The notes beneath the pieces were generated by a model that was not told the DNA's origin, searched no databases, and saw only the letters and a list, made by a program, of their open reading frames with translations. Shown here one piece after another: positions 18,122-37,900 of a DNA stretch of 64,000 nt. Positions within the stretch are counted from its first letter, which is position 1, and each line of letters opens with the position of its first letter. Position numbers and translations under genes: made by a program. This DNA is from a virus, in IMG/VR virus record IMGVR_UViG_3300049432_000151, positions 21,050-85,049 of that record; one strand, given 5' to 3'.

Positions 18122-19399
18122 ATGGCTACCAAAGATGTGACGCTCAATGACGTTGCCAATTTCGTCTTCGAGCAGATGTTCAACGACCCGAAGCTCCGTG
18201 AGGTTCCGGAGAACGAGCGCGCGGCATACGTCGCCAAGCGCTTCAATGCTCTCGCCGAGGAAGTCGCTGAGGCTCGCGCCGAGGCGAAGGTCACCGGCAT
18301 CCGCACGCAGATGACCGAGCTGCAGTCGGCGATGACCGAGATGCAGGAGCGCGCGACGCGCGCCGAGAAGTTCCGCGCCAACGACCACGGCTTCCACCGC
18401 GGCATCGATGGCAAGCTCCAGCCGAACGTCTCCCGCGAGACGGCGGAGACGCTCGTCACGATGATCCGCGCCATGAAGGACAAGGAGTTCGAAAAAGCAC
18501 GCGCCGTTTCGAGCGGCGTGGGCGCTGAAGGCGGATTCCTCCTCCAGACCGATGTCGCTGCCGACATCCTTCGCCTCGTCCCTGACACCGGTCTGTATCC
18601 GCAGATTGCGCGTCCGTGGCCGATGGGAACGAAGAAGGTCGACATCGGCAGCGTGCTCTCTCAGATGGGTGCGTACTGGCCCGAAGAGAACAACGCGATC
18701 ACGCCGAGCTTCCCTGGCTTCGGAAAGGTCTCGCTCGAGGCGAAGTTGCTCGGCGCGCTGATCCCAGTTCCTCTGACACTCATCGAGGATTCCACCCCCG
18801 AGCTCGGCCAGCTCTTCGCTGATCTGATCCGGGAGTGCATCGCACTCGAGATTGACCGCGTCGCCATCGTAGGCAAGTCGGCCGCGAACGGCGGAACGGA
18901 TCCGTTTGACGGTCTGCTCAACTCCACGGGCATCAAGGTGAAGGTCATGGACAATGGCCACACCTCGTTCAAGAACATCGGCTGGGAGTATCTGCAGGAC
19001 CTGCAGGACACCGTGCCGGAAGGTGCTCGCGACGACAACTCGTACCTCATCAACCAGTCGGTGTTCAACTTCCTGCGCAAGCAGAAGGACGCCGACGGTC
19101 AGCCGATCTGGCAGCGTCCTGCTGACGGTGAGCCGGGCACGTTGTGCGGTAAGCCGTACTTCAAGACCGAGCGGATGCCGGCGTACAGCGCGGCCGCTCA
19201 GCCTTCCAAGCGCAGCGCGCTGTACGGCAACTGGAAGAAGTGGGCAATCTTCGGCAACCGCAAGGAGCTGACGATCGCCACCTCTGACGTTGCGGGTGAC
19301 GCATTCAAGAACGTGCAGCTGATCCTGCGCGGAATCACGCGGGTCGGCTTTGCTTCGTTCGGGCCAGCGATCTCCACGCTCGAGACTGCGGCGAACTAG
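18122..19399 (+). CDS. Major capsid protein, HK97 fold
   Basis: N-terminal coiled-coil delta domain, GGFLLQTD, LEAKLLGALIPV...LIEDS, KQKDADGQPIW, LCGKPY, LYGNWK; AGGAG RBS. Confidence 0.95.
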   Translation: MATKDVTLNDVANFVFEQMFNDPKLREVPENERAAYVAKRFNALAEEVAEARAEAKVTGIRTQMTELQSAMTEMQERATRAEKFRANDHGFHRGIDGKLQPNVSRETAETLVTMIRAMKDKEFEKARAVSSGVGAEGGFLLQTDVAADILRLVPDTGLYPQIARPWPMGTKKVDIGSVLSQMGAYWPEENNAITPSFPGFGKVSLEAKLLGALIPVPLTLIEDSTPELGQLFADLIRECIALEIDRVAIVGKSAANGGTDPFDGLLNSTGIKVKVMDNGHTSFKNIGWEYLQDLQDTVPEGARDDNSYLINQSVFNFLRKQKDADGQPIWQRPADGEPGTLCGKPYFKTERMPAYSAAAQPSKRSALYGNWKKWAIFGNRKELTIATSDVAGDAFKNVQLILRGITRVGFASFGPAISTLETAAN

Positions 19400-20193: not shown

Positions 20194-20226
20194 CCGCGCA
20201 ACCCAACCATCATCAACGCATTCCGA

Positions 20227-20254: not shown

Positions 20255-20266
20255 GCTGGAGAATCG

Positions 20267-20665
20267 ATGCGATTCGAGATCACAACCGCGGTCCACTTCG
20301 GCTACATGCGGACGCCGGGTGTCTATGACGACATGACCGAAGCTGATGCGGCGAACCTGTCGGCACCGCGGGCAGGGCTGCCACACGGGTACGGGCGTGC
20401 CGTTGCTGAAGAGAACTCGCCAGTGGTGGCGCCCGTTGTCGCACCGCTTCAGCCGGCAGTCGAGGACACAAATGATGAAACCACCGCAGAGAAATCCGAG
20501 CCGCCCTCCAGCGGAACGGGATCGAATGATCCGGCAACAGGATCATCGAACACGGATCCGAAACAACCTGCCGAGTTCACCTGCCCCACCTGCAGCAAGT
20601 CCTTCACCGAGTCCGCAGACCCGGCAGTCTCCCTCTCCGGACACAGACGTTCGAAGAAACACTGA
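20267..20665 (+). CDS. Hypothetical phage protein with C-terminal C2H2-like zinc finger
   Basis: FTCPTCSKSF...LSGHRRSKKH; GGAG RBS. Confidence 0.6.
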   Translation: MRFEITTAVHFGYMRTPGVYDDMTEADAANLSAPRAGLPHGYGRAVAEENSPVVAPVVAPLQPAVEDTNDETTAEKSEPPSSGTGSNDPATGSSNTDPKQPAEFTCPTCSKSFTESADPAVSLSGHRRSKKH

Positions 20666-20675
20666 GGAGTGACGC

Positions 20676-20849
20676 GTGCCAGGCGGCTACTCACACAGCA
20701 ACGTCGAGGACTTCGAGCGGAACGAGGGTGATCGCAAGGCTTCGAACCTGCGGATCGCGTTGCTCGTGATGCTCTGGGACCTGCTGCTTCACCTCATCGA
20801 CGTTCGATACGGGTCACTTTTCCGCGCGTTGTTTGAGTACAGGTTCTAA
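20676..20849 (+). CDS. Small hypothetical protein (57 aa)
   Basis: Below cutoff. GAGGAG RBS, GTG start, fills the operon gap: MPGGYSHSNVEDFERNEGDRKASNLRIALLVMLWDLLLHLIDVRYGSLFRALFEYRF*. Confidence 0.55.
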   Translation: MPGGYSHSNVEDFERNEGDRKASNLRIALLVMLWDLLLHLIDVRYGSLFRALFEYRF

Positions 20850-20852
20850 CCG

Positions 20853-21155
20853 ATGGCGAAGAACGGGCCCGACCAGTACGACGTGATCATCACTAATCCG
20901 AGCGAGGTCATACCTCTCGGCGATGAATTGCCGATCAGGGGAACAGTTCTGATCGTGGCTCGAGAGGAGAACGTCGGGCGGCCAAAGTTCGGCGTTGTCG
21001 GCGTGCTCTCTCCCGTGAGCTCCGGTAAGCGGCTGCGTCGAGAAGACGTCGTAACGCTTGACCATCCTGGCGGCATACGCCTCAGCCAGTACGGCATAAC
21101 CGGTGGCAACGTCGGCGACGGTGTGACGATCATCCATGGAGGCTGGTCACTGTGA
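20853..21155 (+). CDS. Small beta-rich virion-associated hypothetical protein
   Basis: 100 aa within the operon; GTGA overlap with the next gene. Confidence 0.6.
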   Translation: MAKNGPDQYDVIITNPSEVIPLGDELPIRGTVLIVAREENVGRPKFGVVGVLSPVSSGKRLRREDVVTLDHPGGIRLSQYGITGGNVGDGVTIIHGGWSL

Positions 21156-22876
21156 AGTTACTTGCCTCACTGGTTGCCGTGTCGCTCCTTGCGGGACCGG
21201 TATTCGCGCAGAACCGCGAGGTCGACGCGAACATCTACGTCAACGGCCAGCCGGTGACCGCGCTGAACCCGTTGCCGATTACGGGCCTCGCCGGCGGTGG
21301 CGGCGGCGGTTCGGTGCAGCTGCAATTGAGGAGCGCGCTGAGCGTCTGGACGGATCTCGGCTACTGCGCCGGCTGTCTCAACATGCCGATCCAAGGCACA
21401 GTTTCAATCACCGGATCCGTAGCGGTTACAGGAGGCCTCACCGACGCTCAGCTTCGGGCGAGCGGTGTAGCCGTGACCGGCACTTTCTGGCAGGCGACAC
21501 AACCGGTGAGCGGCACGCTCGGCCGGTCGTGGACTCTTGCCAGCGGCACAGACAGCGTCGCTATCTCAGGTTCGATCTCGAACACGTCGTTCAACGTCGG
21601 CAACTTCCCGTCCACATACGACACCAGCGATCGCGCCGCGCGTCTGCTGGGCATCGTGTACGGCGAACAGGGCCAGCTCGCGCAGCGCACGACGACGCGC
21701 GACCTGTTCATGCAACTGCGGACCGGAGGCGCTGAGTACGACGCACGGCAGATCCGGACCATTACCGAAACTCTCGTCACCAAGGGCGCCGGAGCCGTCG
21801 TCGCCGAATCGTTGGCCGTCCGTTGCGTCAACGCTGCCGGCAACGCCTTTGAGTCGTGCGCAGGCGCAGGCGGTCCGGGCGGTGGAACCGTGGCGATCGA
21901 CCAGACCGGAACAGCAAACGACGTCGAAGTCACGAACTCCTCGATCGCCGTCACGGGAACATTCTGGCAGGCTACCCAACCCGTGAGCGGCACCTTCTGG
22001 CAGGCGACGCAGCCTGTCAGCGGTCCTGTGACAGACGCGCAGCTCCGCGCGACCGCGGTTCCGGTCTCCGGTACGTTCTGGCAAGCAACGCAACCAGTCA
22101 GCGGGCCGCTCACGGACGCGCAGTTGCGCGCGACGGCGGTGCCGGTCAGCGGCTTCCCGACGACCGCGGCGTCCACCGCTGTGGCGGTCCGGTGCGTGAA
22201 CACAGCCGGCAACGCGTTCGAAGCGTGCGGCGGCTCGAGCTCGGGCGGAGGTGCGACGGCAACAGCAGCCGCGCCGACGTATCTGGAAGGTGCAGCCGCA
22301 GCTCTTTCGGTTGACCTCAGTGGGGGCTTGCGCGTCGAGACGAAGTACGGTGGCGCTCACAGTTCAGTGACGCCAGCCGACGCAGCGATGACGGGCGGCT
22401 ACGCCGAGGCAGAGGCAGCAGCGCTAGACTCGAGCGGCGTGGTCGAAGGCGACATCACGCGCAACAAATCGGACATTGAAGGCCGGCAGTTCATGCGGAC
22501 CGATCATCCGAACAGCTTCTTCTGTGCGATGACGTCGACGGCTGTCGCGGCCACGGTCATCACCGGGTGCGTCGGTGCCGGCGGCGCAACGATGGCGTCA
22601 CCTGGAGCTGGGCTGCGGCGCTACATCACGGACATTTCATACAACTCCTCGATCATCTCCACGACGGCGAACTTTATGCAGCTCAGCTACGGCACCGGCG
22701 CTACCTGCGCGACCGGCAACGTGCCGTTCTATCGTGGCAGCAACTCGGTGGCGTTTCTCACTGTCACAGAGCCGATCGTCACTCCGATCCGCACCGGCGT
22801 GGCCACAGACGTTTGCTTCATTCACCCTGGCGCCGGCACGAGGCAGATCAACATCCGCGGCTACGTCGCGCCGTAA
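21152..22876 (+). CDS. Fibre-like beta-repeat protein with Sec signal peptide
   Basis: MKLLASLVAVSLLAGPVFA/Q; GTFWQATQPVSG x4, TDAQLRA x3, AVRCVNxAGNAFExC x2; GGAGG RBS. Confidence 0.75.
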   Translation: MKLLASLVAVSLLAGPVFAQNREVDANIYVNGQPVTALNPLPITGLAGGGGGGSVQLQLRSALSVWTDLGYCAGCLNMPIQGTVSITGSVAVTGGLTDAQLRASGVAVTGTFWQATQPVSGTLGRSWTLASGTDSVAISGSISNTSFNVGNFPSTYDTSDRAARLLGIVYGEQGQLAQRTTTRDLFMQLRTGGAEYDARQIRTITETLVTKGAGAVVAESLAVRCVNAAGNAFESCAGAGGPGGGTVAIDQTGTANDVEVTNSSIAVTGTFWQATQPVSGTFWQATQPVSGPVTDAQLRATAVPVSGTFWQATQPVSGPLTDAQLRATAVPVSGFPTTAASTAVAVRCVNTAGNAFEACGGSSSGGGATATAAAPTYLEGAAAALSVDLSGGLRVETKYGGAHSSVTPADAAMTGGYAEAEAAALDSSGVVEGDITRNKSDIEGRQFMRTDHPNSFFCAMTSTAVAATVITGCVGAGGATMASPGAGLRRYITDISYNSSIISTTANFMQLSYGTGATCATGNVPFYRGSNSVAFLTVTEPIVTPIRTGVATDVCFIHPGAGTRQINIRGYVAP

Positions 22877-22900
22877 TCCACCAACCAACAAAGGAGCAAC

Positions 22901-23356
22901 ATGAAACGAGCACTCGTCCTCGTCCTGGCACTGGTGTGCCTCTTCACCCTCACGTCGTGCGTCGGCAATCCTCCACCGCATTCGGGAGCGACACTCGACG
23001 CGCCGGAGCGGATCCTGCTCCCTGCAGCGAAGTCGGCCTGCGCCATCTACACGAAAGCGCGGCCGCAGGTTGCCGCATTCAAAGCGTGGGCGACTGTGAA
23101 CTGGAACGCGACGGTTCCAGGGACGAACACTCCGATCATTGCGGCCGAGATGAAAGCGACACTCCTCGAGTTCGACGCATACGTGCCCGCGCTGAAGATC
23201 GTAGGCAACGCGTCGTGCTCGGCCAGCCTCGTCGAATACGAGTCAGCACTCTCTCCTCTTCCATCTGAGCGGCATTTCGATTGGGACCGCGTGCTCAACA
23301 TCACCGCGAAGGTCGCCGGCGTCGCACTCGACCTCCATCAGCAGGGGGCGTTCTAG
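22901..23356 (+). CDS. Lipoprotein
   Basis: MKRALVLVLALVCLFTLTSC lipobox-like signal; AAGGAG RBS. Confidence 0.7.
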   Translation: MKRALVLVLALVCLFTLTSCVGNPPPHSGATLDAPERILLPAAKSACAIYTKARPQVAAFKAWATVNWNATVPGTNTPIIAAEMKATLLEFDAYVPALKIVGNASCSASLVEYESALSPLPSERHFDWDRVLNITAKVAGVALDLHQQGAF

Positions 23357-23358
23357 CC

Positions 23359-23709
23359 ATGGCGCTAAAGACAGGTGATAAGGCCACACCGCCTGCCGTG
23401 AGCGCGAGCCCAGAATCCGTTGAGACGGCAACGGCAACTGCACCAACTCCCGGACCGAAGCCGGATGGAATCGTCATCAATCCCGCTCGCGAGAGCCGGA
23501 AGCTCACCATCCTGACGATTGAGGAAGGTCCCGAGGTCCTCGCCGAGACGACCGTCGACGGTGACGCATCCGCAGTGATTGGCCGTGTACTCGAGGCGGT
23601 CAAGAAGCACGGGGTCACCGTCATCCGCGTCTGGCAGCACGGCGAGGGGAAGCTGATCGCCGAAGCGCTTCGGCAGGTCGCGGGGCTCAAAGTTCTCGAG
23701 CTGAAGTGA
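23359..23709 (+). CDS. Hypothetical protein resembling an inactive terminase nuclease domain
   Basis: IVINPARES..LTIL..EEG.EVL...DASAVIGRVLEAVKKHGVTVIRVWQHGEGKLIAEALRQ, judged by eye. Confidence 0.5.
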   Translation: MALKTGDKATPPAVSASPESVETATATAPTPGPKPDGIVINPARESRKLTILTIEEGPEVLAETTVDGDASAVIGRVLEAVKKHGVTVIRVWQHGEGKLIAEALRQVAGLKVLELK

Positions 23710-23717
23710 GGTACCCC

Positions 23718-25145
23718 ATGAAACGCACTCTCTCAGCGGCGATCGTCGCGGCAACGCTCGTGGTCTATCCAGCCTGCGCGCAGTTCGACTTTCGCGGCAT
23801 CGGCACGCACACGATGACCTATCAGGTCTTCAAGAACGCTCCAACGTTGCCATCGGTCTCAAAGCTCGGCGAGACGCTCATCGTCATGGACCCGTTGTGC
23901 AACTGCCTGAAGATCTCGATGAACGGCACGGCGTTCCAAACGCTCGTTCAGACACCGGGCGCGGGCGGTACCGTTCTCAGTGTCTTCGGCCGTGGCGGCG
24001 CGGTCGTGGCGAACTTCGGCGACTACACGGGTGCGCAGGTCCAGGCGACGCCATTCAACACGATTGCCGGTACGAACGTTCAGACGCAGCTGCAGCAGAT
24101 CGACGCACGGATCACCGCGTCCGCGATCACGACCGTGTTCGGCCGGGCCGGAGCTGTTGCTGGCCTCGCTGGCGACTACACCGCCGTAAAGATCACCTCG
24201 ACCGCTTCAGGCTCGATCGGATCCACCGACGTGCAGGCAGCGATTGCTGAGATCGCGAGTGAGAAGTTGGACGGCACCGTCGCCAACACCTATACCGCGC
24301 TCCAGACCTACAACTCACCAACCGCTGCGGTGAGGATCAAGCCGTCGTCGGCTCCGGGCGCAAACGCGAAGCTCTTCGAGCTGCGGTCTAACCTCGATGC
24401 GTCACTCGCATGGTGGGATGCCGAAGGCGACGAGACCGTCAACAGCAGCTACCTCACTTCCGGATCGATCGACACACTCACCGCCCTGACTCTCAAGACT
24501 GCGGGCGTCACGCGCGCTACGATCAATTCGACTGGGGCTACGTTCGCAGGCGTACTGGCGGCGCCGCAGGCAGTCTTTAATTACACGAACGGCGGAGCAG
24601 TCATCGGAACCACGATCGTGGTGACGAACGCTCTGGGTAGTAACGGCATCGGCGTGGACTCTACGGCCACTGCAACTGGCGCAATCGGCTTGAAGGGCAC
24701 GGCCACCAACACGTCCGGCATCGGTGTCAGCGGTACCTGTTCGGCCGCTGCGAACTGTATCGGCGTGCGTGCCGAAACTACCAGCACAAACGTGAACGCG
24801 ACCGCCATCACCGCGGCGGCGGCGCGCGGAACGACTGTGTTCGCTCAAGCGAATGACGCCCTGAACACCAAGTCGACAATCGTCGCTCGTGACTTCGGTC
24901 AGGCAGCGGACACCAAGATGATCGATGCGCAGAGCTCGGGCGGCACTTCGGTGGGCTGGATTGATCGCGAGGGTGACGCCGGGTTCAAGACGATCACCAT
25001 CACGGCCACGGCGTTCGCCTCACTTGGGACGCCTACGAACGGGTCGATCTACTACTGCAACGACTGCACGATCGCAAACCCGTGTGCGGGCAGCGGGACC
25101 GGTGCACTCGCGAAACGCTTGAACGGCGTGTGGGTCTGCAACTGA
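23718..25145 (+). CDS. Fibre-like protein with Sec signal peptide
   Basis: MKRTLSAAIVAATLVVYPACA/Q; VFGRxGAV..xGDYT x2 (phage fibre-type repeat), beta-helix-like G-I-G-V repeats, Cys-rich C-terminus. Confidence 0.75.
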   Translation: MKRTLSAAIVAATLVVYPACAQFDFRGIGTHTMTYQVFKNAPTLPSVSKLGETLIVMDPLCNCLKISMNGTAFQTLVQTPGAGGTVLSVFGRGGAVVANFGDYTGAQVQATPFNTIAGTNVQTQLQQIDARITASAITTVFGRAGAVAGLAGDYTAVKITSTASGSIGSTDVQAAIAEIASEKLDGTVANTYTALQTYNSPTAAVRIKPSSAPGANAKLFELRSNLDASLAWWDAEGDETVNSSYLTSGSIDTLTALTLKTAGVTRATINSTGATFAGVLAAPQAVFNYTNGGAVIGTTIVVTNALGSNGIGVDSTATATGAIGLKGTATNTSGIGVSGTCSAAANCIGVRAETTSTNVNATAITAAAARGTTVFAQANDALNTKSTIVARDFGQAADTKMIDAQSSGGTSVGWIDREGDAGFKTITITATAFASLGTPTNGSIYYCNDCTIANPCAGSGTGALAKRLNGVWVCN

Positions 25146-25195
25146 TCAGGCCCGTCCCCCGCTCATTCCCACAGATCGACCGTCAAGGAGTTCTG

Positions 25196-28100
25196 ATGAT
25201 GAAGAGACTCGCAATCGCGGTTCTGCTGATGCTGACGCTGCCCGCGTCCGCACAGTACAACCGCCCTTCAACGTCGACATCGACGTACATCTGGGCGTTC
25301 AAGCCGACCGCTGTGGCGCCTCCTGTCGCCGAGACTGGCGTGGGTAAGATCTATCTCGATCCGACCTGCGGCTGCCTGAAGTGGAGTTACAGCGGGTCCG
25401 TCTGGGCAAACCTCTACACGCCTGGGCTTGTCTACGTCGCCACCTTCAACGGCCGGACGCAGGCGGTCGTCCCAGCAAACGGGGACTACACCGCGACACA
25501 GGTGACAAACACGCCGGCCGGGGCGGTAGCCGGCACGACGGTGCAGAGCGCACTGAATGAACTTGACACTGAGAAGGCGCCGCTCGCCTCGCCTACCTTC
25601 ACGGGCACCGTTACGGTGCCCTCGCCGTTCACCCTGGGCGCCACGTCGATCACGGTCACCGGGACGGAGATCAATCGACTCGCCGGGGTCGCGTCGAACG
25701 TTCAGACACAGATCGATGCGAAAGCGCCTCTCGCGTCGCCGGCATTGACCGGAACGCCATCCGCACCGACAGCAGCGGTGGACACGAACACGACGCAGAT
25801 CGCAACGACTGCGTACGTCGTCGGTCAGGCGTACCTGAAAAGTGCGACTGCAGCGTCGACATACGAGACGCAGGCGGCACATGCGGCCGACGTCTCTACG
25901 ATCAACGCCGCCATCGCGCTGAAGGCGCCACTCGCATCTCCGACGTTCACAGGAACGGTCACAGCTCCGTCAATCACCGGCGGCATCACGCCCGGCACCG
26001 CTTCGACGTCCACGACAATCGCAAAGAGTGGCATCGGCAGCAGCGTCGCCGTTCAGGTGCAAGCCTCAGCCGCAGCTGACCGAGCGCTGATGTCGCTGTC
26101 AGCTGGCGACGGCACGACGTCCGGACGATTCTCCTTCGTTGACTACATTGCCAACGAGACGACACCTCAGAGGTGGCGCGCGGGTATGAATGGGACGAAG
26201 GACTTTGTCGTCCGTGATGAAACGGGGACGCGGACCCCGATCAGCATCGCGCAGTCAGACGGGACGATCATTCTCACCGCCCCGAGTGCGGCGGCTGTCT
26301 TTATGAACACGGGCTACGCGCGGCTGAGGCATGCCGCGGCTGGAAACACGACGTTCGACGTTCAATCCAACGGAGCAGCAAACAACGCGTCGATCGGCAT
26401 CATGAGCGGCGATGGGACAACGTCTAGCCGCTTCGCTGTTGTCAGCTTCGCTTCCTCTGAGACGGTTCCTCAGTCTTGGGCAACGGGCATGTATTCCAGC
26501 AAGAACTGGGTCGTCAGGGACGACACGGCTGGGCGCACACCAATCTCCATCGCTCAGACCGACGGCCTCGTCTCAATCGCGAACGGCTTGAGCGTCACCT
26601 CCGCAAGCGGCAACACCTTCGTAGCGATCACAACGGTCGCCGATGCGGTTGCTCGAGTCCACGCCAATTCGGCGACTCACGCGGCGCAGGTTGACGTCGT
26701 TTCAGGTAACGCAACGACCTCATCTCGAAACTCGTTCATTCGTATTCGGTCGAGTGAAACAGCGACGCAAGAGTGGCGCATCGGAATGGAGGCTAGCAAG
26801 AACTTCTCAATCAACGACACGACGGCGGGTAAGTCGCGCATCGTTTTGCGGCAGGACGTGCCGGGCCTCGTCGGTATCAATGGCTCACCGTCCGCTGGCA
26901 CGCTCGATGTTCGACCCGCGGACGGCTCGGTTGCAGCGTCAGTGGCAGCGACGGCGCCAAACACAACCGGTGCTGCAACAGTTCGGGTGTCCAGCGGAGA
27001 CGGTACAACGTCCGCGCGGGCTGCGTACCTCGACGTGGTCTCAAGCGAAACGTCGACTCAGCGATGGATCGCGGGCATGAACGGCACTAAGAACTTCGTC
27101 GTGACCGACATTACCGGCTCTCGAACGCCGATCAGCGTTGCTCAGACCGACGGTGGCGTCACCTTTTCTGCTCGCATCGGAGTCGGCGTCGCGGCGGCGA
27201 CCGGGTTGGAGCGCATTAAAGGCTACGGCACTGATGCTTCCGAATACCTGACCATCGAAAACGCAAGCACGACAGGTGCTTCGATCATGAACTCCGTGGC
27301 CGGGAACGGAACGACGTCGAGTCGCAACTCCTACCTCCGCCTTTTTTCGAATGAGACGATTACGCAAGAGTGGCGAGCTGGGATGCAGGGCGACAAGACC
27401 TACAGAATTCGCAACCAGACCGCATCCCGAGATCAGATGGTGTTTCGCGACGATCTCGCGTACGTAGGTATCAATGCCACACCGTCCTATCACCTCGATG
27501 TTCAGGACGCGACAGCGAGTGCAACAGTTCGGGTCCGCTCTTCTGCCGCTGCCACCAATGCGATCTTTCGCGCTGAAGGCGGAAGTGGAACGAGCGTAGC
27601 TGGCGTCATTCTCTCGGCGGGCGACGGCACCACCTCTAACCGTAACGCGTACACGCAATTCGTAGCCAACGAAACGTCCTCGCAAACGTGGAACGCGGGA
27701 ATGGTTGGTTCAAAAGATTGGCGCATCTCGGATGCAACGGGTGCGCGCGTTCCGCTCAGCATCGCGCAGACCGACGGCCTCGTCACGTTCGCTAATGGCC
27801 TCGACGCCAGCACGGGTGATCAGCGGGTGAAGGGCTACAAGTTGCAGGCTTTCACACTGCGCATCGTGAACACGGCCGGGGTGATTCAGCACTCGATCTT
27901 CGCCACGTCCACGGCGTTCGCGACCACGATCACTGGAGCCACAGCGACGCTAGCGAACACACCGACCGTCGACGCGGCGACGCCGTTCGTGTCAGGCGGC
28001 GGGCTGATGTCGGGAGCGACTGAGAACTTCGTGTTCGACACAGCTACCGCACAGGGAGTCGAGATTATCGGGGTCGCAAGCGTGGAGTTCTATTCCGCTG

Positions 28101-28288
28101 GCGCGACTGGCACAGCAGCGCCGCCGCTTCCACTCTTTCACTTGCGCAACATCAACGTAAACGGCACCACGATCACGCGACCCGCAATCGGGTTTTACAA
28201 CTCACTCTCGGCGGCGTGGAATCTCACGACGGCGAACCTCGCAGCCGGCAAGGAAATCCGGGTCAAATTCCTCGGCTACATCAAATGA
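25196..28288 (+). CDS. Long tail-fibre-like protein with Sec signal peptide
   Basis: AAGGAG RBS then MMKRLAIAVLLMLTLPASA/Q; KAPLASP(T/A)(F/L)TGT x3 and TPSAPTAAVDTNTTQIATTAYV (classic phage fibre repeat); six G(D/N)(G/A)TTS repeats. Confidence 0.8.
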   Translation: MMKRLAIAVLLMLTLPASAQYNRPSTSTSTYIWAFKPTAVAPPVAETGVGKIYLDPTCGCLKWSYSGSVWANLYTPGLVYVATFNGRTQAVVPANGDYTATQVTNTPAGAVAGTTVQSALNELDTEKAPLASPTFTGTVTVPSPFTLGATSITVTGTEINRLAGVASNVQTQIDAKAPLASPALTGTPSAPTAAVDTNTTQIATTAYVVGQAYLKSATAASTYETQAAHAADVSTINAAIALKAPLASPTFTGTVTAPSITGGITPGTASTSTTIAKSGIGSSVAVQVQASAAADRALMSLSAGDGTTSGRFSFVDYIANETTPQRWRAGMNGTKDFVVRDETGTRTPISIAQSDGTIILTAPSAAAVFMNTGYARLRHAAAGNTTFDVQSNGAANNASIGIMSGDGTTSSRFAVVSFASSETVPQSWATGMYSSKNWVVRDDTAGRTPISIAQTDGLVSIANGLSVTSASGNTFVAITTVADAVARVHANSATHAAQVDVVSGNATTSSRNSFIRIRSSETATQEWRIGMEASKNFSINDTTAGKSRIVLRQDVPGLVGINGSPSAGTLDVRPADGSVAASVAATAPNTTGAATVRVSSGDGTTSARAAYLDVVSSETSTQRWIAGMNGTKNFVVTDITGSRTPISVAQTDGGVTFSARIGVGVAAATGLERIKGYGTDASEYLTIENASTTGASIMNSVAGNGTTSSRNSYLRLFSNETITQEWRAGMQGDKTYRIRNQTASRDQMVFRDDLAYVGINATPSYHLDVQDATASATVRVRSSAAATNAIFRAEGGSGTSVAGVILSAGDGTTSNRNAYTQFVANETSSQTWNAGMVGSKDWRISDATGARVPLSIAQTDGLVTFANGLDASTGDQRVKGYKLQAFTLRIVNTAGVIQHSIFATSTAFATTITGATATLANTPTVDAATPFVSGGGLMSGATENFVFDTATAQGVEIIGVASVEFYSAGATGTAAPPLPLFHLRNINVNGTTITRPAIGFYNSLSAAWNLTTANLAAGKEIRVKFLGYIK

Positions 28289-28698
28289 GCATGCGTAACC
28301 GCATCGCCTCTGTCGTCGTGACCATTGGCCTCATCGCGGCCACGCTGGGCAACGCGCTACTCCTCGTGAGCTGCGCGAGCGAGCGGACGGTGCGACGCGA
28401 GTCCGCGTACCTCCTCGCGGCGACGACCGCTGACATGGAAACGACGTTCGCCGTAGTACGCCGCGGAGGCGCCGAGGCCAACCCGGTCATGAAGCCCTTT
28501 GTAGACCGCGGCAGGCCTGCAACCTACGCGCTGCAGCTCGCGATCGACGGAGCACTCATCTGGTACGCGATGCGACTGAAAGAACGTGGCGACCCGCGAT
28601 GGCACTGGCCACTCCGGATCGTCGCATTCGGCCATCTCGGCGCAGCAACTTGGAACGCGACACAGATCCGCAAAGCGGAGAAGGATAAAGATCGATGA
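28285..28698 (+). CDS. Membrane protein, DUF5658-like
   Basis: ADMETT...GGAEANP motif with hydrophobic helices; ATGA overlaps on both sides. Confidence 0.6.
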   Translation: MSMRNRIASVVVTIGLIAATLGNALLLVSCASERTVRRESAYLLAATTADMETTFAVVRRGGAEANPVMKPFVDRGRPATYALQLAIDGALIWYAMRLKERGDPRWHWPLRIVAFGHLGAATWNATQIRKAEKDKDR

Positions 28699-29126
28699 AA
28701 CGATTCACTCTCGCAGCACTCCTCCTGCTCGTCTCGCTCTCAGCATTCGGCGACGGCAAGGTCGTCACGCCTGCGCCGGAGGATCCGGTCGAGGCATGGC
28801 GCTTCCTCGACGTTCGCAACGCGATCGCTGATCCGGCCGCGCCTGTGGCCATCATCGAGGTGGGCTACTTCACAAAGTCGGGTAAGTTTCATCACGCCTC
28901 GACGGTGAACCTGCAGGGCCCGGCGTATCACCAGTTCCTCGGCGCGATCGTCACCGTGGCCGATGCCGCCTACGAAGCGACCCTGACCATGATGGTGACC
29001 AAGGCCGACGGAACGACGGTGACCGTCCCCGACACTCAGTCGATCTTCCGCTTCCGCATCGCGAAATACCTTCTCGCTATCGGCGAGCTGCCCGCCAGCG
29101 TCACCGCCGAGAAGCTCCCGAAGTAA
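28695..29126 (+). CDS. Secreted hypothetical protein (possible fibre chaperone)
   Basis: MKRFTLAALLLLVSLSAFG signal peptide; AAGGA RBS. Confidence 0.6.
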   Translation: MKRFTLAALLLLVSLSAFGDGKVVTPAPEDPVEAWRFLDVRNAIADPAAPVAIIEVGYFTKSGKFHHASTVNLQGPAYHQFLGAIVTVADAAYEATLTMMVTKADGTTVTVPDTQSIFRFRIAKYLLAIGELPASVTAEKLPK

Positions 29127-29135
29127 GGAACTGAC

Positions 29136-29699
29136 ATGCTCGTCACTCCCGAAGAGGCGGCCTCCTTCATCGGAGGCGAAGCGAACGCCCAAGATCCGAC
29201 TCTCGTGCGCCTGACGGCAGCCGTCTGCTCCGCCGTACAGAAATCGTGTGGCCGCTTCTTCGAGTACGCCGAGAGAACCGACTACGTGCGCGGCTTCGGG
29301 CTCGACTACGTCTTTCTCACGGACGCGCCGATCGCCGAGATTGTCGAGGTGCGCATTGATCCGACCGGCTTGTTCGCCGGCGGGACCGTGCCGATCGATC
29401 AATTCTTCTTCCGTCCGGGAGAGGATGACCGCCGGCTTTGGTGGCGAAACGGTAAGTTTCCCGAAGCCGACATCGTAGCGCGCGTCACTCGGCGCGCGGG
29501 GTATCAGGTAACCGGCGACACCCAGCCACAGCTGCCCGCCGACATCAAGACGGTCATCCTCGATGAGATCGCGGCGCGGATACAGCGTGGTTCGGCCGAG
29601 GTGATGAAGTCGGAGACGATCGGCAGCTACAGCTACACCAGATTTGACGGTGCGTTCAATCCTCAGAACCTCGCGTGGCTGCGCCCTTACCGGCTATGA
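29136..29699 (+). CDS. Head-tail connector (gp6/gp15-like)
   Basis: MLVTPEEAASFIG...AGY...LPADIK...KSETIGSYSYT...LRPYR. Confidence 0.85.
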   Translation: MLVTPEEAASFIGGEANAQDPTLVRLTAAVCSAVQKSCGRFFEYAERTDYVRGFGLDYVFLTDAPIAEIVEVRIDPTGLFAGGTVPIDQFFFRPGEDDRRLWWRNGKFPEADIVARVTRRAGYQVTGDTQPQLPADIKTVILDEIAARIQRGSAEVMKSETIGSYSYTRFDGAFNPQNLAWLRPYRL

Positions 29700-30016
29700 A
29701 CAATCTCCTTCGGCACCGCTGCGCGATCGAACGACGGGACGCAGTCCAGGCTAGCGCCTCCGGCGAAACCATTCAGAACTGGCAGACGATCGCGGATGGC
29801 GTTCCGTGCCTACTCGATGCGAAGGGCGGCTCCGCGCGGCAAGGCGAGTACGGTCGTACGACGCCCGTCAACTTCGTCGGCTTCTTCCGGTGGATGACCG
29901 ATCTCCAGGTGGACGATCGCATCGTGGTGAACGATCAACGCTACGCCGTCACCTTTCTCGCGGACCGTAGCGGGCACCACATCGAGGCGGACCTAGCGCT
30001 CGTAATCGCACCGTGA
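29696..30016 (+). CDS. Head closure/head-tail joining protein
   Basis: HRCAIER...GETIQNWQTIADGVPC...DRIVVNDQRY; expected synteny. Confidence 0.8.
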   Translation: MNNLLRHRCAIERRDAVQASASGETIQNWQTIADGVPCLLDAKGGSARQGEYGRTTPVNFVGFFRWMTDLQVDDRIVVNDQRYAVTFLADRSGHHIEADLALVIAP

Positions 30017-34578: not shown

Positions 34579-34920
34579 ATGCGATTCTCACAGCAGGCCG
34601 CGCAGGCTCTCACCAGCCTGGTCGGGATGAAGTACGCCCGGATGAATTGCTGGCGTGTCGTCCAGTTCGCGTACAACGTGCAAGGCGTAAAGCTGCCCGA
34701 CTACTGGTCAGCGCTTTCGCTGTTCCGAACGCTCGGTCCTACTGAGGAGCGTCAGCCGTTCGACGTGGCTGTCATTCGGAACCACTCGATCGTCACCAAC
34801 CACGTCGGCCTCTACCTCGGCGACGGTCAGATCCTGCACTCCATGGAAGACACAGGCGTCGTCTGTCAGCCGCTCTCGCGCATCGAGCGAGTGGTCGGCT
34901 TCCTCCGCCTCCACACCTGA
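34579..34920 (+). CDS. NlpC/P60 tail assembly protein (gpK-like)
   Basis: NCWRVV...NHVGLYLGDGQILH. Confidence 0.85.
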   Translation: MRFSQQAAQALTSLVGMKYARMNCWRVVQFAYNVQGVKLPDYWSALSLFRTLGPTEERQPFDVAVIRNHSIVTNHVGLYLGDGQILHSMEDTGVVCQPLSRIERVVGFLRLHT

Positions 34921-37900
34921 TGATCAAAGTTCACGTACCCACTGGCCTGCCGACCTCTGGCGGGAAGCTGGAGTTCTGCTCGTACGAGCGCGACTTCCGT
35001 CCTGGCGCTTCGGTCGCGGACTACCTGATCGAGCTGGCCATCCTGCCGGAGCTCGTGTCACACGTCATCTACAACGGCGGATCGCTCTCACCGGAGAAGA
35101 CTGTCCGGTATCGGACGAAGCCGAAGGGCTTCTGGCGCCGCATGCTCCGGCTGAGTCCCGCGAAAATCGCCGTCCTTCAGTCCGATCTCGAAGCAGCCAC
35201 ACCTCGCGACGGTGATGAGTTTCATGTCATCCCGAGCGTCGAAGGAAAGAACGCCGCTCAGATCCTCGGAGCGGTAAGTGCCGCCGTCGTCATTGCCGCC
35301 GGCTTCTACGTTGGCGGTCCATCTGGAGCTCTGTTCGCGGCGAAGGCTTGGGGTCTCTACGCGTACGCCGCTGGATCGTTCGCCGGCTCGCTGCTCACAC
35401 CGCGCGCGGACAACATCAAAGCGCCTGGCGACGACGGTCCGACAACTCACACGTGGGGCGGTCTGCTGAATGAAGACCGAGAGGGCGTTCCCGTCCCCAT
35501 TGTGTTCGGTAAGAACCGCACCGGCATCGTGCGTGTGGGCGCTTTCATCCGACGCAGCAAAGGCATTCCAGGTTACACGAATGGCGTCGAGACGCTGCAC
35601 ATCCTCGGGCTCGTCTCAGTCGGTCCGGTGCACTCGATCGGCGACATTCGGGTGAACGACCAGCCGTACACGAACTTCCCCGGCGTGACCGTCGAGACGC
35701 GCCTGGGCACAACAGGCCAAGCGCCGCTGAAGGGTTTCAGCGTTGTAGCTAACACGTTCCCGCTGAGTGTCGAGCTCACGCCGAGCGGCTACACCTATTC
35801 GACTCGCGCGAACTTTCCGGTTGATTCGCTTGAGGTGTTGCTCACGATCCCCGCTCTGTTCCACGTTGACGAGGATCGCGGCGAGCAGAAGACCAACGCG
35901 ACGCGTTACCGGTACCGCCATCGCCTGAAGGGTGGAGCCTTCGGAGCGTGGACGGATGTCGAGGTGAAACGCTCTTCGCGGAGCGCAGTGCTTGAGACCG
36001 TCCGCATCGAGAACCTCACACGCGGCGAGTACGACGTCGAGATCCAGTTTGTCAGCGCTGACCACGTCAATGACCAGCGTGATGCGTGGAAAATCTTCCT
36101 CACCGGTGTCACCGAGGAGCTGGAGGATCTACGCACGTATGACGGCTATGCAATGGTGGCTGTGCGCGCGATCGCGCGTGAGGACCTGAACGGGCAGATC
36201 CCGAACATCTCCGTACTCTGCGAAGGTCTCGAGCTGGAGACGTGGAACGGATCCGGGTTCACAGCGCCGGCGTACCTTTCCGGTGCCGAGGAAATCGGCC
36301 GTTCCCCGGCGTGGATCATTCTGAAGCTGCTGCGCGACCGATCCGTCAGGGATGCGGTAACAGGCGAATACACCTACGAGGCGTTCGGTCTCGGCGACTG
36401 GATCACGGACGATCAAATCGACCTCGACTCCTTCCTCACGCTCGCCGACCGCGCGAATGAGGCGGTAACCGCCAAGCGGATCGTGAAGGATTCGAACGGC
36501 GCTGAGAACGCCGAGGAGTTTCAGGAGCCGCGCTTCCTGCTCGACATCGTCGTCAACCAAGAGCAGCGCGCGCTCGAGCTCATTCGCACATTGTTGGCAA
36601 CGTGCCGGGCATTCCTTGTCTTCTCTGGCAACCAGTGGCGAGTTGTCTGCGAGATGCCCAAGACGCCGGTTCAGCTCTTCACGATGGGCAACATCAAGAA
36701 GGGTTCCTTCTCGATCGCCTACAACGCAGACCGGACAATCAACGCCCTCGTCCCGCAGTTCATCGACGCGGATCGCGACTACGAATTCACGACACACGAG
36801 CCGATCGACGGCCCGGGTGTGACGCACTACAACCAGCCGCGACGTAGCGAAAACCAGCAGTTTGTGGGCATCACGCGCCGGACTCAGGTCATCCGCGAAG
36901 CGCTCTACAACCTGAACAAGCGGTGGTACATCCGTCGGTTGATCGGGTTCACGGCCGGAACCGCCGGAATCCTTGCCGAAGCCGGAGATCTGATTCACGT
37001 ACAGCACGACATCCCGCAGTGGGGCTTCGGCGGTTGCGCGCTTGCGAGTACTCCCAACGGCCTCACCAGCTCGGACACTCTCGTCGTGCTCGGCCGCGAG
37101 GTCACCCTCGAGGCGGGTAAGACTTACCAGCTCGTCGTCCGATTCCAAGATGGATCCCATGACGAAGGTGAGTCTCGCACCGTAGCGGACGGCCCTGGGA
37201 CGTACAGTGCGCTCTACGTCACGACGCCGTTCTCACGCCCCGTACAGGAGAACGACATCTGGTGGTTCGGCGAGGTCTCGCCGCAGCCGTGCACCGTCGT
37301 TGAGATCGCTGAGACGGACGGCGACGAGGATGAGCGGCAGCTTCTCGCCGTCGAGTACAACGAGTCGATCGAGAACGACGAGACGGTCGTCGTCGTACCG
37401 CAGTTGTCGAACCTGCCGAGGTTCCTCGCTCCCCCTCCTCCGATCACATCGGGCGAAGCGAAAGAGATCATCTCCGCGCGCAACGATGGCCGGTGGTCAT
37501 CGACGATCGTCGTCCAGTGGACGCCACCGACAGCGCAGAGCGGCTACGGGGTTTACTCGCACGCCGATGTAGACATTTCGTTCGATGGCGGCACGTCGTG
37601 GGTGCCGGCGCCGAACGGCCAAGGGCTGGGCTCCGACTACCGCATCACGGACGCAGAGCACGGCACTCCGTACAAGTTCCGCATCACACCTATCTCCACA
37701 CGTGGTATCGCGAACCGGGCAGGCGCGTTCACGACAGCGTCACTGACGACACAGGGCAAAACGACCGCACCGCCGACACCGACCGGTTTCGTTGGTGCGG
37801 TGGAGGATGGCGTATTCCTCTTCTCGTGGAACCCGGTTGCAATCGATGACCTGCAGCGTGAGGTGGAGTACGAGGTTCGCACTTCGAATCCCGCTAACTG

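What the first reader, a model, noticed from the sequence alone, without database searches (positions are those of the whole stretch)
21152..29126. Exported fibre module inside the virion operon: phage fibre-repeat proteins with signal peptides and paired cysteines
Seen: between the capsid and head-tail connector genes, three fibre-like proteins (21152, 23718, 25196) each begin after a good RBS with a typical Sec signal (MK(R)-hydrophobic core-small residue/Q). They sit with a lipoprotein (22901), a membrane protein (28285) and another secreted protein (28695). The mature regions carry phage fibre signatures (KAPLASPxxTGT, FxGRxxAV..GDYT). 23718 and 25196 share an N-terminal DPxCxCLK motif. 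Mature Cys counts are even (10, 8, 2). Known: tailed-phage structural proteins normally assemble in the cytoplasm without signal peptides. Inference: these fibres are exported, disulfide-folded in the periplasm and docked onto virions during or after lysis, or they form a prophage-encoded surface adhesin or appendage anchored by the lipoprotein/membrane proteins. This is the best candidate for an undescribed system in the window.
Basis: partly seen in the sequence, partly recalled or inferred. Interest (0 to 1): 0.88.

Follow-up and report, generated by a model that had tools for sequence, protein, structure and literature searches.

The report
Phage fibre proteins with export signals
In the middle of its particle-building genes, a soil phage encodes three fibre proteins and three small partners that all begin with bacterial secretion signals, so they probably fold outside the cytoplasm where tailed-phage particles are built; what they do there is still open.

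Summary
In the late operon of a TipJ-type siphophage or prophage from a soil metagenome, six of the seven genes at 21152-29126 start with Sec-type or lipoprotein-type leaders. Only 1 of 24 other late-operon genes does.

- **Fibre nature:** 25196 carries P1 S / P2 H-type fibre repeats. Residues 22-245 of 23718 model as a trimer, score 0.80 against a best control of 0.00.
- **Leaders are conserved:** all ten database proteins that carry the shared N-terminal module have a leader ending just before a conserved Q-F-D.
- **Leaders track particular end domains, not fibre repeats:** 81 of 108 proteins with the C-terminal Cys knob have one, against 7 of 119 generic fibre relatives.
- **Cysteines:** all lie in local pairs.
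- **Seen elsewhere:** leader-bearing fibre or tailspike genes sit inside the virion modules of unrelated IMG/VR phages (L095, L112).
- **Host:** the knob family is mostly in Acidobacteriota MAGs, 7 of 11 loci.

Export is well supported. Docking onto virions, and a surface-adhesin role, are untested. My searches found no paper describing this. The same scan has noted the phenomenon before on other DNA in at least seven genomes.

The parts
20853..21155 (+). 100-aa gene of unknown function. Its stop overlaps the GTG start of 21152, so it ties the block to the upstream head genes.
   Evidence: ORF list. No family match.
21152..22876 (+). Leader-bearing repeat protein of 574 aa. It has four FWQATQPVSG and three xTDAQLRA repeats, two VRCVNxAGNAFExC cysteine loops, and a C-terminal beta-sandwich domain (about residues 440-574) with four invariant cysteines.
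   Evidence: motifs and cysteines; alignment A2, invariant C458, C473, C519, C555; pLDDT 63-85 in most 10-residue blocks of 450-574; best VIA Z 8.2, generic jelly-roll or CBM-like fold.
21152..21208 (+). Predicted Sec signal peptide of 21152 (residues 1-19, cleavage VFA|Q).
   Evidence: GGAGG lies upstream. No earlier in-frame start exists.
22901..23356 (+). Predicted lipoprotein of 151 aa, with lipobox LTS|C at C20.
   Evidence: No family match.
23359..23709 (+). 116-aa protein without a leader, the only predicted cytoplasmic product of the block. Function unknown.
   Evidence: No family match.
23718..25145 (+). Leader-bearing trimeric fibre-like protein of 475 aa: leader 1-21, N-terminal module 22 to about 85 with DPLCNCLK, two GRxxAV..GDY units, and a C-terminal Cys knob (C447, C450, C456, C474).
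   Evidence: knob family; N-module family; trimer of residues 22-245: score 0.80, best control 0.00, pLDDT 88-89, runs agree in at least 90% of contacts.
25196..28288 (+). Leader-bearing tail-fibre-like protein of 1030 aa: leader 1-19, the same N-terminal module (DPTCGCLK), three KAPLASPxxTG fibre repeats, and six repeats of about 100 aa (GDGTTSxR ... PISIAQxDG).
   Evidence: phrog_454 1.3e-12, phrog_7032 8.2e-12; tblastn to P1/P7 S and P2-type fibres over residues about 94-280.
28285..28698 (+). 137-aa membrane protein, DUF5658. Its start overlaps the stop of 25196.
   Evidence: Pfam PF18902, 27 bits against a cut-off of 25.2. Hydrophobic segments seen.
28695..29126 (+). 143-aa secreted protein (leader 1-19). 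Its start overlaps the stop of 28285.
   Evidence: The nearest ESM Atlas cluster is viral hypothetical proteins (score 0.90, 178 shared features, a lead only).
18122..19399 (+). HK97-type major capsid gene, marking the upstream boundary of the context.
   Evidence: PF05065, 112.9 bits.
29675..30016 (+). Head-completion or neck gene, marking the downstream boundary of the context.
   Evidence: DUF3599, 28.6 bits against 25. Phage_HCP, 24.4 bits, just under its cut-off of 25.
34920..40259 (+). TipJ-related central tail fibre of 1779 aa without a leader. It is the only fibre-type gene outside the block.
   Evidence: NF040662 E 2.1e-23, but 82.5 bits is under the cut-off of 140. No leader.

Best explanation
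The block is a seven-gene cassette read as part of the phage's late (virion) operon. Six of its seven products leave the cytoplasm.

**What the three large proteins are.** They are phage-fibre-type trimers that carry ordinary Sec signal peptides. They cross the inner membrane unfolded and are cut by signal peptidase I just before a conserved glutamine. They then fold and trimerise in the periplasm, where their locally paired cysteines can form disulfides.

**Architecture.** Two of them (23718, 25196) share a leader-linked N-terminal module (QFD...DPxCxCLK) at the base of the trimer. Standard fibre shaft repeats follow, then different distal domains. This is the layout of a common docking end plus variable binding ends. 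The third (21152) ends in a beta-sandwich domain of the kind found on fibre tips and carbohydrate-binding modules.

**Partners.** A lipoprotein, a DUF5658 membrane protein and a small secreted protein are made with them in the envelope.

**Function.** The cassette therefore works in the cell envelope, most likely by binding surface glycans or receptors late in infection. It is not part of cytoplasmic particle assembly.

**Shown here:** gene order and coupling, leader features and their conservation, fibre homology, the modelled trimer, and the cysteine pattern.

**Inferred:** actual export, cleavage, disulfides, and the target. Whether the fibres finally sit on particles, on the envelope or on debris is open. 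Rivals 1-3 below are refinements of this reading. Rival 4 excludes it.
For: 1. **Concentration of leaders.** 6 of 7 block genes are leader-like, against 1 of 24 other late-operon genes, p = 6.4e-5. This uses my own rule-based test.
2. **Starts.** Ribosome-binding sites precede the leader-containing starts. 21152 has no earlier in-frame start.
3. **The N-module is never seen without a leader.** Every database hit that aligns from residue 1-7 of the mature module begins at its own residue 18-31. All ten have a K/R-hydrophobic-AxA/G leader followed by Q, and nine of them by F-D. Mean hydropathy of leader residues 5-16 is 2.3-2.9 in 9 of 9 aligned sequences.
4. **Leaders track terminal domains, not repeats**.
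   - Cys knob: 81 of 108.
   - GYIAP-type C-terminal domain: 11 of 19, against 10 of 100 other repeat relatives.
   - Generic relatives of the 25196 shaft: 7 of 119.
5. **Cysteines are in local pairs.** In 21152: 72/75, 225/236, 348/359, 458/473, 519/555. In 23718: 61/63, 341/347 and four in the knob. C458, C473, C519 and C555 are invariant in 10 of 10 sequences.
6. **Fibre nature.** PHROG tail-fibre hits and tblastn hits to P1, P7 and P2 fibres. The homotrimer model of residues 22-245 of 23718 scored 0.80 against a best control of 0.00. That mark was reached by 20 of 30 solved pairs and 1 of 23 single chains, with partner pLDDT 88-89 and runs agreeing in at least 90% of contacts. The interface includes residues 62-64 beside the CxC. 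No sequence relative is in the PDB.
7. **One operon.** Gaps are 0-50 bp and there are three start/stop overlaps. There is no excess of promoter-like sites (1 found, 1.7 expected) or terminator-like sites (9 found, 10.0 expected) in 18000-31000.
8. **Recurrence.**
   - L095 lies in a record rated 100% complete. Three consecutive leader-bearing genes, including a knob fibre, sit between the portal and the major head gene.
   - In L112 a leader-bearing tailspike-like gene (phrog_2234, 8.8e-15) lies two genes before the endolysin.
   - In IMG/VR loci, 12 of 20 knob genes are leader-like against 74 of 606 other genes, p = 1.1e-6.
Against: - No trained signal-peptide predictor was available. My rule also flags about 12% of background genes (74 of 606).
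- Nothing shows that the proteins are made, exported or cleaved. No RNA-holding run was listed.
- The same repeats and the same knob also occur on proteins without leaders: 58 of 64 IMG/VR repeat relatives and 27 of 108 knob proteins. So these domains can presumably fold in the cytoplasm too.
- The four knob cysteines (CxxC-5-C-17-C) could bind zinc instead of forming disulfides.
- The CxC of the N-module is lost in 3 of 10 relatives.
- The trimer pass may owe something to likeness to solved phage fibre folds. It used three copies and my own alignment, which differs from the tool's calibration.
- The host is inferred, not known.
Confidence: 0.72

Rival explanations
1. Refinement 1, two-compartment virion assembly. 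The exported fibres are true virion parts (side tail fibres or head fibres). They mature in the periplasm and dock through the shared N-terminal module onto DNA-filled particles only when lysis merges the compartments.
For: - The block sits inside the virion operon and is translationally coupled to head and neck genes.
- 25196 has shaft repeats of virion tail fibres.
- Outside the block, the phage has only the TipJ-type central fibre.
- Leaderless relatives of 21152 sit three small genes after a capsid-gene homologue in L025 and two in L002. This is similar to the place 21152 occupies.
- In L112 the leader-bearing tailspike-like gene holds the usual last-tail-gene place, two genes before the endolysin.
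- From textbook knowledge: fibres and tails of lambda and T4 join particles in vitro, so joining after lysis is physically possible.
Against: - I found no precedent in four literature searches.
- No docking partner was identified.
- The N-module was never seen without a leader, and never in the IMG/VR or JGI contigs scanned.
- L095's phage has further unassigned leaderless tail genes, so the leader-bearing genes need not be its only receptor binders.
- Earlier checks of the same bold claim on other DNA in this scan priced it at 9 to 30 in 100.
Confidence: 0.25
2. Refinement 2, an envelope-acting accessory that is not part of the particle. The exported fibres bind the phage's own receptor or the host's surface polysaccharide from within the envelope late in infection. 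This masks or sequesters the receptor or polysaccharide, so that progeny are not lost on debris and superinfection is blocked. In function this resembles the T5 Llp lipoprotein, or a receptor-destroying enzyme without the enzyme.
For: - The fibres are co-encoded with a lipoprotein, a membrane protein and a secreted protein.
- Leaders go with particular end domains that look like binding tips: beta-sandwich, CBM-like, best Z 8.2.
- Many knob-family relatives carry pectate-lyase or beta-helix domains typical of polysaccharide depolymerases (PF12708, PF13229).
- The Sec route alone delivers only to the periplasm (textbook).
Against: - No homology to known exclusion proteins or defence systems (PHROG, PADLOC).
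- The partner genes are not conserved (and no phmmer matches).
- Nothing identifies a ligand.
Confidence: 0.3
3. Refinement 3, lysogenic-conversion adhesin. The cassette is also expressed from the prophage and puts phage-derived fibres on the host cell surface, like the MAT fibres of Bdellovibrio.
For: The architecture matches MAT fibres: signal peptide, conserved N-terminal domain right after it, trimeric fibre, variable tips (PMC10769870, passages read). A lipoprotein and a membrane protein could serve as anchors.
Against: - No promoter-like or terminator-like signals set the block apart (a sigma-70 consensus scan only).
- The block is tightly coupled to late genes.
- The N-module profile gave only 1 weak hit (E 2.7e-4) in 401 genomes of the phylum of an Acidobacteriota MAG. 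So it is not a common chromosomal surface family.
- No route across the outer membrane is encoded in the block.
Confidence: 0.1
4. No export. The hydrophobic N-termini are not working signal peptides. They are either artefacts of start choice or N-terminal anchors or assembly segments, and the proteins are ordinary fibres assembled in the cytoplasm.
For: - Tailed-phage parts are normally cytoplasmic.
- Leaderless relatives with the same repeats and knob exist.
- Later in-frame starts exist in all three fibre genes.
- One paper reads predicted signal peptides on phage capsid proteins as likely prohead-protease substrates (PMC10367356, passages read).
Against: - The leaders have the full n-h-c layout with AxA|Q.
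- The leaders vary more in sequence (39% pairwise identity, against 49% for the mature module) while all keep hydrophobicity.
- The leaders end exactly where conservation of the mature module begins, in 10 of 10 relatives.
- Ribosome-binding sites precede the leader-containing starts.
- Six neighbouring genes share the feature.
Confidence: 0.08

Closest known systems
Bdellovibrio bacteriovorus MAT (mosaic adhesive trimer) fibres (PMC10769870; passages read)
   Same: Both are phage-tail-fibre-like trimers with a signal peptide, a conserved beta-rich domain immediately after it, a long shaft and swappable tip domains. Both are thought to dock by the N-terminal domain on an unidentified partner.
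   Different: MAT genes are chromosomal genes of a predator and are shown on its surface and in an invasion vesicle. Here the genes lie inside the virion operon of a tailed phage. The N-module is about 60-80 aa rather than about 130 aa. Homology of the N-domains was not tested, because no MAT sequence was at hand.
Pantoea stewartii WceF (PMC7949094; passages read)
   Same: An exported bacterial protein with a phage tailspike fold, including a P22-like N-terminal domain. It acts on the cell's own exopolysaccharide.
   Different: WceF uses a Tat signal, is a beta-helix enzyme, and sits in an EPS biosynthesis cluster. The leaders here have K-R or K-K, not twin arginines. The three window proteins show no beta-helix family match, and they are phage-encoded.
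Tail fibres of P1 (S), P7, P2 (H) and relatives (phrog_454, phrog_7032, phrog_2631)
   Same: 25196 shares the shaft repeats (KAPLASPxFTGxP type) over residues about 94-280, at 39-49% identity.
   Different: No record covers 80% or more of the query (0 of 80). Only 7 of 119 database relatives found with residues 1-500 have a leader-like N-terminus. Those fibres are made and assembled in the cytoplasm (textbook).
Signal-peptide genes of Porphyromonas gingivalis phages (PMC10367356; passages read)
   Same: Phage genes with Sec signal peptides whose predicted cleavage exposes an N-terminal glutamine. The authors read them as modifiers of the host envelope.
   Different: The passages call them genes of unknown function and do not describe them as fibres or as lying in a virion module. 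The list is in Supplementary Data 4, which I could not see.
Phage T5 Llp lipoprotein beside the receptor-binding gene
   Same: An exported phage lipoprotein encoded next to host-recognition genes that masks the receptor late in infection.
   Different: There is no sequence likeness to 22901 (no PHROG hit at a useful E-value). Here the fibres themselves also carry leaders.

Membership tests
Sec (signal peptidase I) substrates | A positively charged n-region, a hydrophobic h-region of about 10-15 residues, and small residues at -3 and -1 before the cut | tested here: met
   Met for 21152, 23718, 25196 and 28695, by reading and by my own rule-based script. No trained predictor was available.
Sec (signal peptidase I) substrates | Actual translocation and cleavage | not testable with these tools
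   Needs reporter fusions or N-terminal sequencing.
Bacterial lipoproteins (signal peptidase II) | A lipobox [LVI][ASTVI][GAS]C at the end of a leader | tested here: met
   22901 has LTS|C at residue 20. 28285 has LVS|C at residue 30, but it is a multi-pass DUF5658 protein, so that case is inconclusive.
Tat substrates (as WceF) | A twin-arginine motif in the n-region | tested here: not met
   The leaders read MK, MKR, MMKR. None has RR.
Phage tail fibre, P1 S / P2 H shaft-repeat type | A significant match to the tail-fibre profiles or proteins | tested here: met
   25196 only: phrog_454 1.3e-12, phrog_7032 8.2e-12, and tblastn hits in 80 phage records. 21152 and 23718 have no such hit.
Phage tail fibre (any) | Homotrimeric shaft | tested here: met
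   Model only. Residues 22-245 of 23718 in three copies scored 0.80 against a best control of 0.00. That mark was reached by 20 of 30 solved pairs and 1 of 23 single chains, with pLDDT 88-89 and runs agreeing in at least 90% of contacts.
Phage tail fibre (any) | Presence in the virion | not testable with these tools
   No cultured relative and no proteome.
Mtd_N (PF18454) repeat proteins | A Pfam match over the gathering score | tested here: inconclusive
   No Pfam hit at E up to 0.1 for 23718 or 25196. However, many relatives carry a precomputed PF18454 hit, and ESM Atlas look-alikes of 23718 are Mtd_N/HylP clusters at 0.88, a lead only.
Bdellovibrio MAT fibres | Signal peptide followed directly by a family-wide conserved N-terminal domain | tested here: met
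   The architecture is met: 10 of 10 N-module relatives. Homology to the MAT N-domain itself was not tested.
Bdellovibrio MAT fibres | Display on the producing cell's surface | not testable with these tools
   Would need localisation experiments.
DUF5658 (PF18902) | A score over the Pfam gathering cut-off | tested here: met
   28285 scores 27.0 bits against 25.2, E 8e-6.
Known anti-phage defence or exclusion proteins | A match to a PADLOC model | tested here: not met
   0 of 7 block proteins match at E up to 0.01.

The most novel reading that the evidence does not exclude
Tailed phages of soil Acidobacteriota, and other lineages noted by this scan, build their host-recognition fibres by a two-compartment route. 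The fibres are exported by Sec, become disulfide-locked in the periplasm, and are added to cytoplasm-assembled particles only at lysis, through a dedicated leader-linked docking module (QFD...DPxCxCLK).
Probability: 0.25. Interest if true: 0.9.

Novelty: new variant of a known kind. Interest (0 to 1): 0.62.

Why it matters
Tailed-phage particles are taken to be assembled entirely in the cytoplasm. This assumption underlies host-range prediction, the annotation of receptor-binding proteins, and phage engineering. Here, and in other uncultured soil phages, fibre- and tailspike-like proteins inside the virion modules carry conserved secretion signals and disulfide-type cysteine patterns.

There are two ways this could matter:
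- **If the proteins end up on the particle,** part of phage assembly takes place outside the cytoplasm and depends on host Sec and Dsb functions.
- **If they do not,** phages deploy a second, exported set of receptor-binding proteins in the host envelope. That would be a new kind of late function, such as receptor masking, glycan binding or debris avoidance.

Either way, these genes would be mis-scored by tools that treat every fibre-like gene as a virion part. The family also gives a defined, testable handle (the leader plus N-module) in Acidobacteriota, a phylum for which I know of no cultured phage; that is recall and was not searched.

Tried and rejected
**Close relatives of the phage**
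- Single-protein pattern scans of IMG/VR found no relative for the capsid protein, 23718, 25196 or 28695.
- So whether close relatives keep the block at this position could not be tested.
- tblastn and phmmer of 25 window proteins against the fetched loci found only distant terminase, capsid and phosphoesterase-domain matches.

**Context of the N-module relatives**
- The N-module profile found nothing in IMG/VR or in the JGI metagenome contigs.
- P0363 and P0481 as queries fetched only repeat-sharing loci, not their own contigs.
- The profile gave 0 of 5, then 1 weak hit in 401, in genomes of the phylum of an Acidobacteriota MAG.

**Structure**
- Monomer AlphaFold2 models were poor: 21152 mean pLDDT 42.3, usable only for about residues 440-574, and 23718 mean pLDDT 42.9. 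I did not fold-search the second model.
- The fold search for the 21152 C-terminal domain gave only generic beta-sandwich matches, best Z 8.2. No specific family is claimed.
- The PDB holds no sequence relative of the knob or of the N-terminal 245 residues.

**An idea dropped**
- I thought the N-module might be a shortened copy of the C-terminal Cys knob. hhalign of A4 against A1 only re-found the N-module itself, so this is untested.

**Partners**
- DUF5658 was not found in 5 of 5 other phage records with leader-bearing fibres.
- There are no PADLOC hits and no NCBIfam hits for the block.
- Neighbours of leader-bearing knob genes are only weakly enriched for leaders: 11 of 46 against 74 of 606, p = 0.027.

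**Expression**
- The one listed sequencing run holding the stretch is a soil metagenome DNA run that may be the source. No RNA holder was listed.

**Literature**
- Six searches found no paper that describes signal peptides on tail fibres within a tailed-phage virion operon.
- Supplements were closed and I did not ask for them. Supplementary Data 4 of PMC10367356 might list fibre-like genes among its signal-peptide genes.

Full report
**Setting**

The window is part of an 85,049-base virus record. The only listed run holding the stretch is a soil metagenome.

The + strand carries a late operon (Pfam, NCBIfam):
- terminase large subunit, 11353-12909
- a portal-MuF fusion, 13197-15635 (PF04860 3.4e-28, PF04233)
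- a long protein ending in a 2H-phosphoesterase domain, 15664-18024
- an HK97-type capsid gene, 18122-19399 (PF05065, 112.9 bits)
- three small genes
- the block of the finding, 21152-29126
- neck and tail-completion genes: 29675 (DUF3599, 28.6 bits) and 30423 (gp17-like, 24.3 bits, just under its cut-off)
- a tape-measure-sized gene
- a 1779-aa TipJ-related central fibre, 34920-40259 (E 2.1e-23, under the curated cut-off)

GC content is even across the block at 0.61-0.64.

**The observation**

All six leaders are there.
- 21152, 23718 and 25196 have a K/R start, a 12-15-residue hydrophobic core, and VFA|Q, ACA|Q and ASA|Q.
- 22901 has a lipobox, LTS|C.
- 28695 has a classical leader.
- 28285 is a DUF5658 membrane protein (27 bits against 25.2).

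Shine-Dalgarno-like sequences precede five of the six starts. The sixth start overlaps the previous stop. 21152 has no earlier in-frame start.

My own rule-based leader test (not a trained predictor) finds 6 of 7 block genes leader-like, against 1 of 24 other late-operon genes, p = 6.4e-5.

Gaps between block genes are 0-50 bp, with three start/stop overlaps. A consensus scan of 18000-31000 shows no excess of promoter-like sites (1 against 1.7 expected) or terminator-like sites (9 against 10.0 expected). By structure, the block is part of the late operon.

**What the proteins are**

*25196* is a tail-fibre relative.
- PHROG tail-fibre families match at 1e-12 to 1e-9.
- tblastn hits 80 phage records over residues about 94-280, including P1 and P7 S and P2-type fibres. 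None covers 80% of the query.
- After the three KAPLASPxxTG repeats come six repeats of about 100 residues.

*23718* has no family hit.
- It shares its first 80 or so mature residues with 25196 (alignment A3).
- It has two GRxxAV..GDY units.
- Three copies of residues 22-245, with a 10-row alignment, model as an intertwined trimer. The score is 0.80 against a best control of 0.00. That mark was reached by 20 of 30 solved pairs and 1 of 23 single chains. Partner pLDDT is 88-89 and the runs agree in at least 90% of contacts. The interface includes residues 62-64 next to the CxC.
- The model supports trimerisation but does not show it. The job differs from the tool's calibration: three copies and my own alignment.
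- The PDB holds no sequence relative.

*21152* is built of FWQATQPVSG and xTDAQLRA repeats, two VRCVNxAGNAFExC loops and a C-terminal domain.
- That C-terminal domain is the only part modelled with confidence (pLDDT 63-85 in most 10-residue blocks of 450-574).
- It is a beta-sandwich whose best structural matches are generic: Z up to 8.2 to viral jelly rolls, carbohydrate-binding modules and fibre-tip or cement proteins.

**Are the leaders conserved?**

Yes, and they go with particular end domains.

1. *The N-module.* I searched mature residues 21-120 of 23718 against 1.84 billion representatives. This gave 416 hits, most through the GDY-type repeat.
   - Besides the query itself, the ten hits that align from residue 1-7 of the module all begin at their own residue 18-31.
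   - All ten have a leader followed by Q, and nine of them by F-D.
   - None starts with the module itself.
   - In the alignment, the leader keeps high hydropathy (2.3-2.9) while being less conserved than the mature module (39% against 49% pairwise identity).
   - The CxC is kept in 7 and lost in 3.
2. *The 23718 C-terminal knob* (ATAFASLGTPxNGxxYCxDCTIANPCAGxGTGALAKRLNGVWVCN) is what most of its 125 database relatives share.
   - 81 of 108 proteins with the knob motif are leader-like.
   - Many carry pectate-lyase or beta-helix domains.
3. *21152.* Of 119 listed relatives, the 19 that end in the same GYIAP-type domain are leader-like in 11 cases, and the other 100 in 10. C458, C473, C519 and C555 are invariant in 10 of 10 aligned proteins.
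4. *Generic relatives of the 25196 shaft* are leader-like in only 7 of 119.

So there is a distinct class of leader-bearing fibre-like proteins that borrows shaft repeats from ordinary fibres.

**Where else, and in what context?**

- *Host range of the knob family.* The knob pattern found 11 loci among the genomes of 185,579 species. Seven lie in Acidobacteriota MAGs. The others are an unclassified bacterium, Methylomirabilia, Myxococcales and Heliomicrobium. It also found 30 loci in IMG/VR. The host of this phage is therefore probably an acidobacterium. That is an inference.
- *Leader frequency in IMG/VR.* 12 of 20 knob genes are leader-like against 74 of 606 other genes, p = 1.1e-6. By a looser rule over viral plus genome loci, the figure is 18 of 29.
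- *L095* lies in a record rated 100% complete. Three consecutive leader-bearing genes (157 aa, a 666-aa knob fibre, 715 aa) lie between the portal (phrog_156, 2.1e-15) and the major head gene (phrog_14242, 3.1e-21).
- *L112.* A leader-bearing 686-aa tailspike-like gene (phrog_2234, 8.8e-15) lies at the end of a run of large genes, two genes before an endolysin.
- *L052 and L069.* Leader-bearing FWQATQPVSG proteins lie among packaging and head genes.
- *Results pointing the other way.*
  - 58 of 64 IMG/VR repeat relatives of 21152 have no leader.
  - The commonest of these lie two or three small genes after a capsid-gene homologue, similar to the place of 21152 (L025, L002).
  - L095's phage has further leaderless, unassigned tail genes.
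- *Partners are not conserved.* The small partner genes of the window have no relatives in the fetched loci. DUF5658 is missing from five other such records.

**Mechanism**

The best-supported reading is that the three fibres, the lipoprotein and the 143-aa protein are Sec substrates made late in infection. They are cut before Gln20-22 (for 28695, before Asp20) and fold in the periplasm.

All cysteines of the mature fibres lie in close pairs:
- 72/75, 225/236, 348/359, 458/473 and 519/555 in 21152
- 61/63, 341/347 and the four knob cysteines in 23718
- 58/60 in 25196

This is the pattern of disulfide loops in exported proteins. In the trimer model the CxC lies at the subunit interface, so an inter-chain knot is possible. 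That is inference. The knob's four cysteines could instead bind zinc.

The shared, always leader-linked N-module plus different distal ends is the layout of a common docking end with variable binding ends.

I put 0.72 on export and envelope maturation. What happens next is open:
- joining particles at lysis: 0.25
- acting in the envelope as receptor or glycan binders that are not part of the particle: 0.30
- a surface adhesin of the lysogen: 0.10
- no export at all: 0.08

**Comparison with what is known**

- *Bdellovibrio MAT fibres.* These are signal peptide, conserved domain right after it, trimeric phage-like shaft, swappable tips (PMC10769870, passages read). The architecture is the same. 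The genes differ in being chromosomal and shown on a cell surface.
- *Pantoea WceF.* A Tat-exported tailspike-like trimer in an EPS cluster (PMC7949094, passages read). The leaders here lack twin arginines.
- *Porphyromonas phages.* They encode Sec-signal genes whose cleavage exposes glutamine, read as envelope modifiers (PMC10367356, passages read).
- *Soil prophage CAZymes.* 5% carry signal peptides (PMC13507307, passages read).
- None of the passages I read places leader-bearing fibres inside a tailed-phage virion operon. Six searches found no such paper.
- *This scan's own earlier notes.* They describe the same phenomenon in at least seven other genomes. Later checks priced the bold reading, that virion parts are exported, at 9-30 in 100. 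I used those odds to temper mine. They are not independent evidence.

**Verdict**

This is a new variant of a known kind: phage-fibre proteins with export signals, here in a virion operon and with a defined leader-linked N-module. It is not unique to this window. Interest 0.62.

Noticed in passing
window 21152-29126 and fetched proteins P0002-P0505: The residue after the predicted cut is very often glutamine (A|QN, A|QF, A|QY here). Of 143 leader-like fetched proteins, 87 have [AGS]Q within residues 13-36, against 77 of 362 leaderless ones. This resembles the 'Q rule' that PMC10367356 describes as a Bacteroidetes feature, but the setting here is probably acidobacterial.
   Followed up: partly
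window 15664-18024: A 786-aa gene between the portal and capsid genes ends in a 2H-phosphoesterase domain (PF13563 2.1e-7; Acb1 0.0019, under its cut-off). A relative of that C-terminal part (E 1.3e-37) lies two genes after a leader-bearing repeat protein in L069 (13367-15529).
   Followed up: no
IMG/VR loci such as L025 9533-12175, L002 7978-10596: A widespread leaderless family of FWQATQPVSG-repeat proteins (about 770-880 aa, ending VMIKAHD) sits two or three small genes after a capsid-gene homologue. In all, 419 IMG/VR stretches encode repeat relatives. Their function seems unknown: PHROG gave no useful hit for 21152.
   Followed up: partly
P0003 and P0409: P0003 carries the Cys knob twice, right after its leader and again at the C-terminus. 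P0409 (122 aa) is just a leader, the N-module and a small Cys-containing C-terminal piece. So the modules occur as minimal stand-alone proteins.
   Followed up: no
L093 7612-8894, L095 7698-8171, L099 1965-5695, L105 10182-11117, L113 7391-8211: Small or mid-sized leader-bearing proteins flank the leader-bearing knob fibres in several phages. By eye, some end in a sequence pattern like the C-terminal beta-sandwich of 21152. This was not tested by profile comparison.
   Followed up: no
window 42059-43137: Downstream of the tail genes lie a lipoprotein-like gene (MMKRAVLAALVAAFSFQC...) and an overlapping membrane-protein gene. Together they look like a spanin pair of the lysis cassette.
   Followed up: no
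window 12909-13193 and 8810-9118 (-): There are two more small hydrophobic or leader-bearing genes. One is a 94-aa membrane protein between the terminase and portal genes. The other is a 102-aa secreted protein on the minus strand in the early region, with predicted cut TQS|QTTTT.
   Followed up: no
window 23359-23709: This is the only leaderless gene of the block (116 aa) and matches no family. Another first-reader note reads it as a dead terminase-nuclease-like protein. I did not test that.
   Followed up: no
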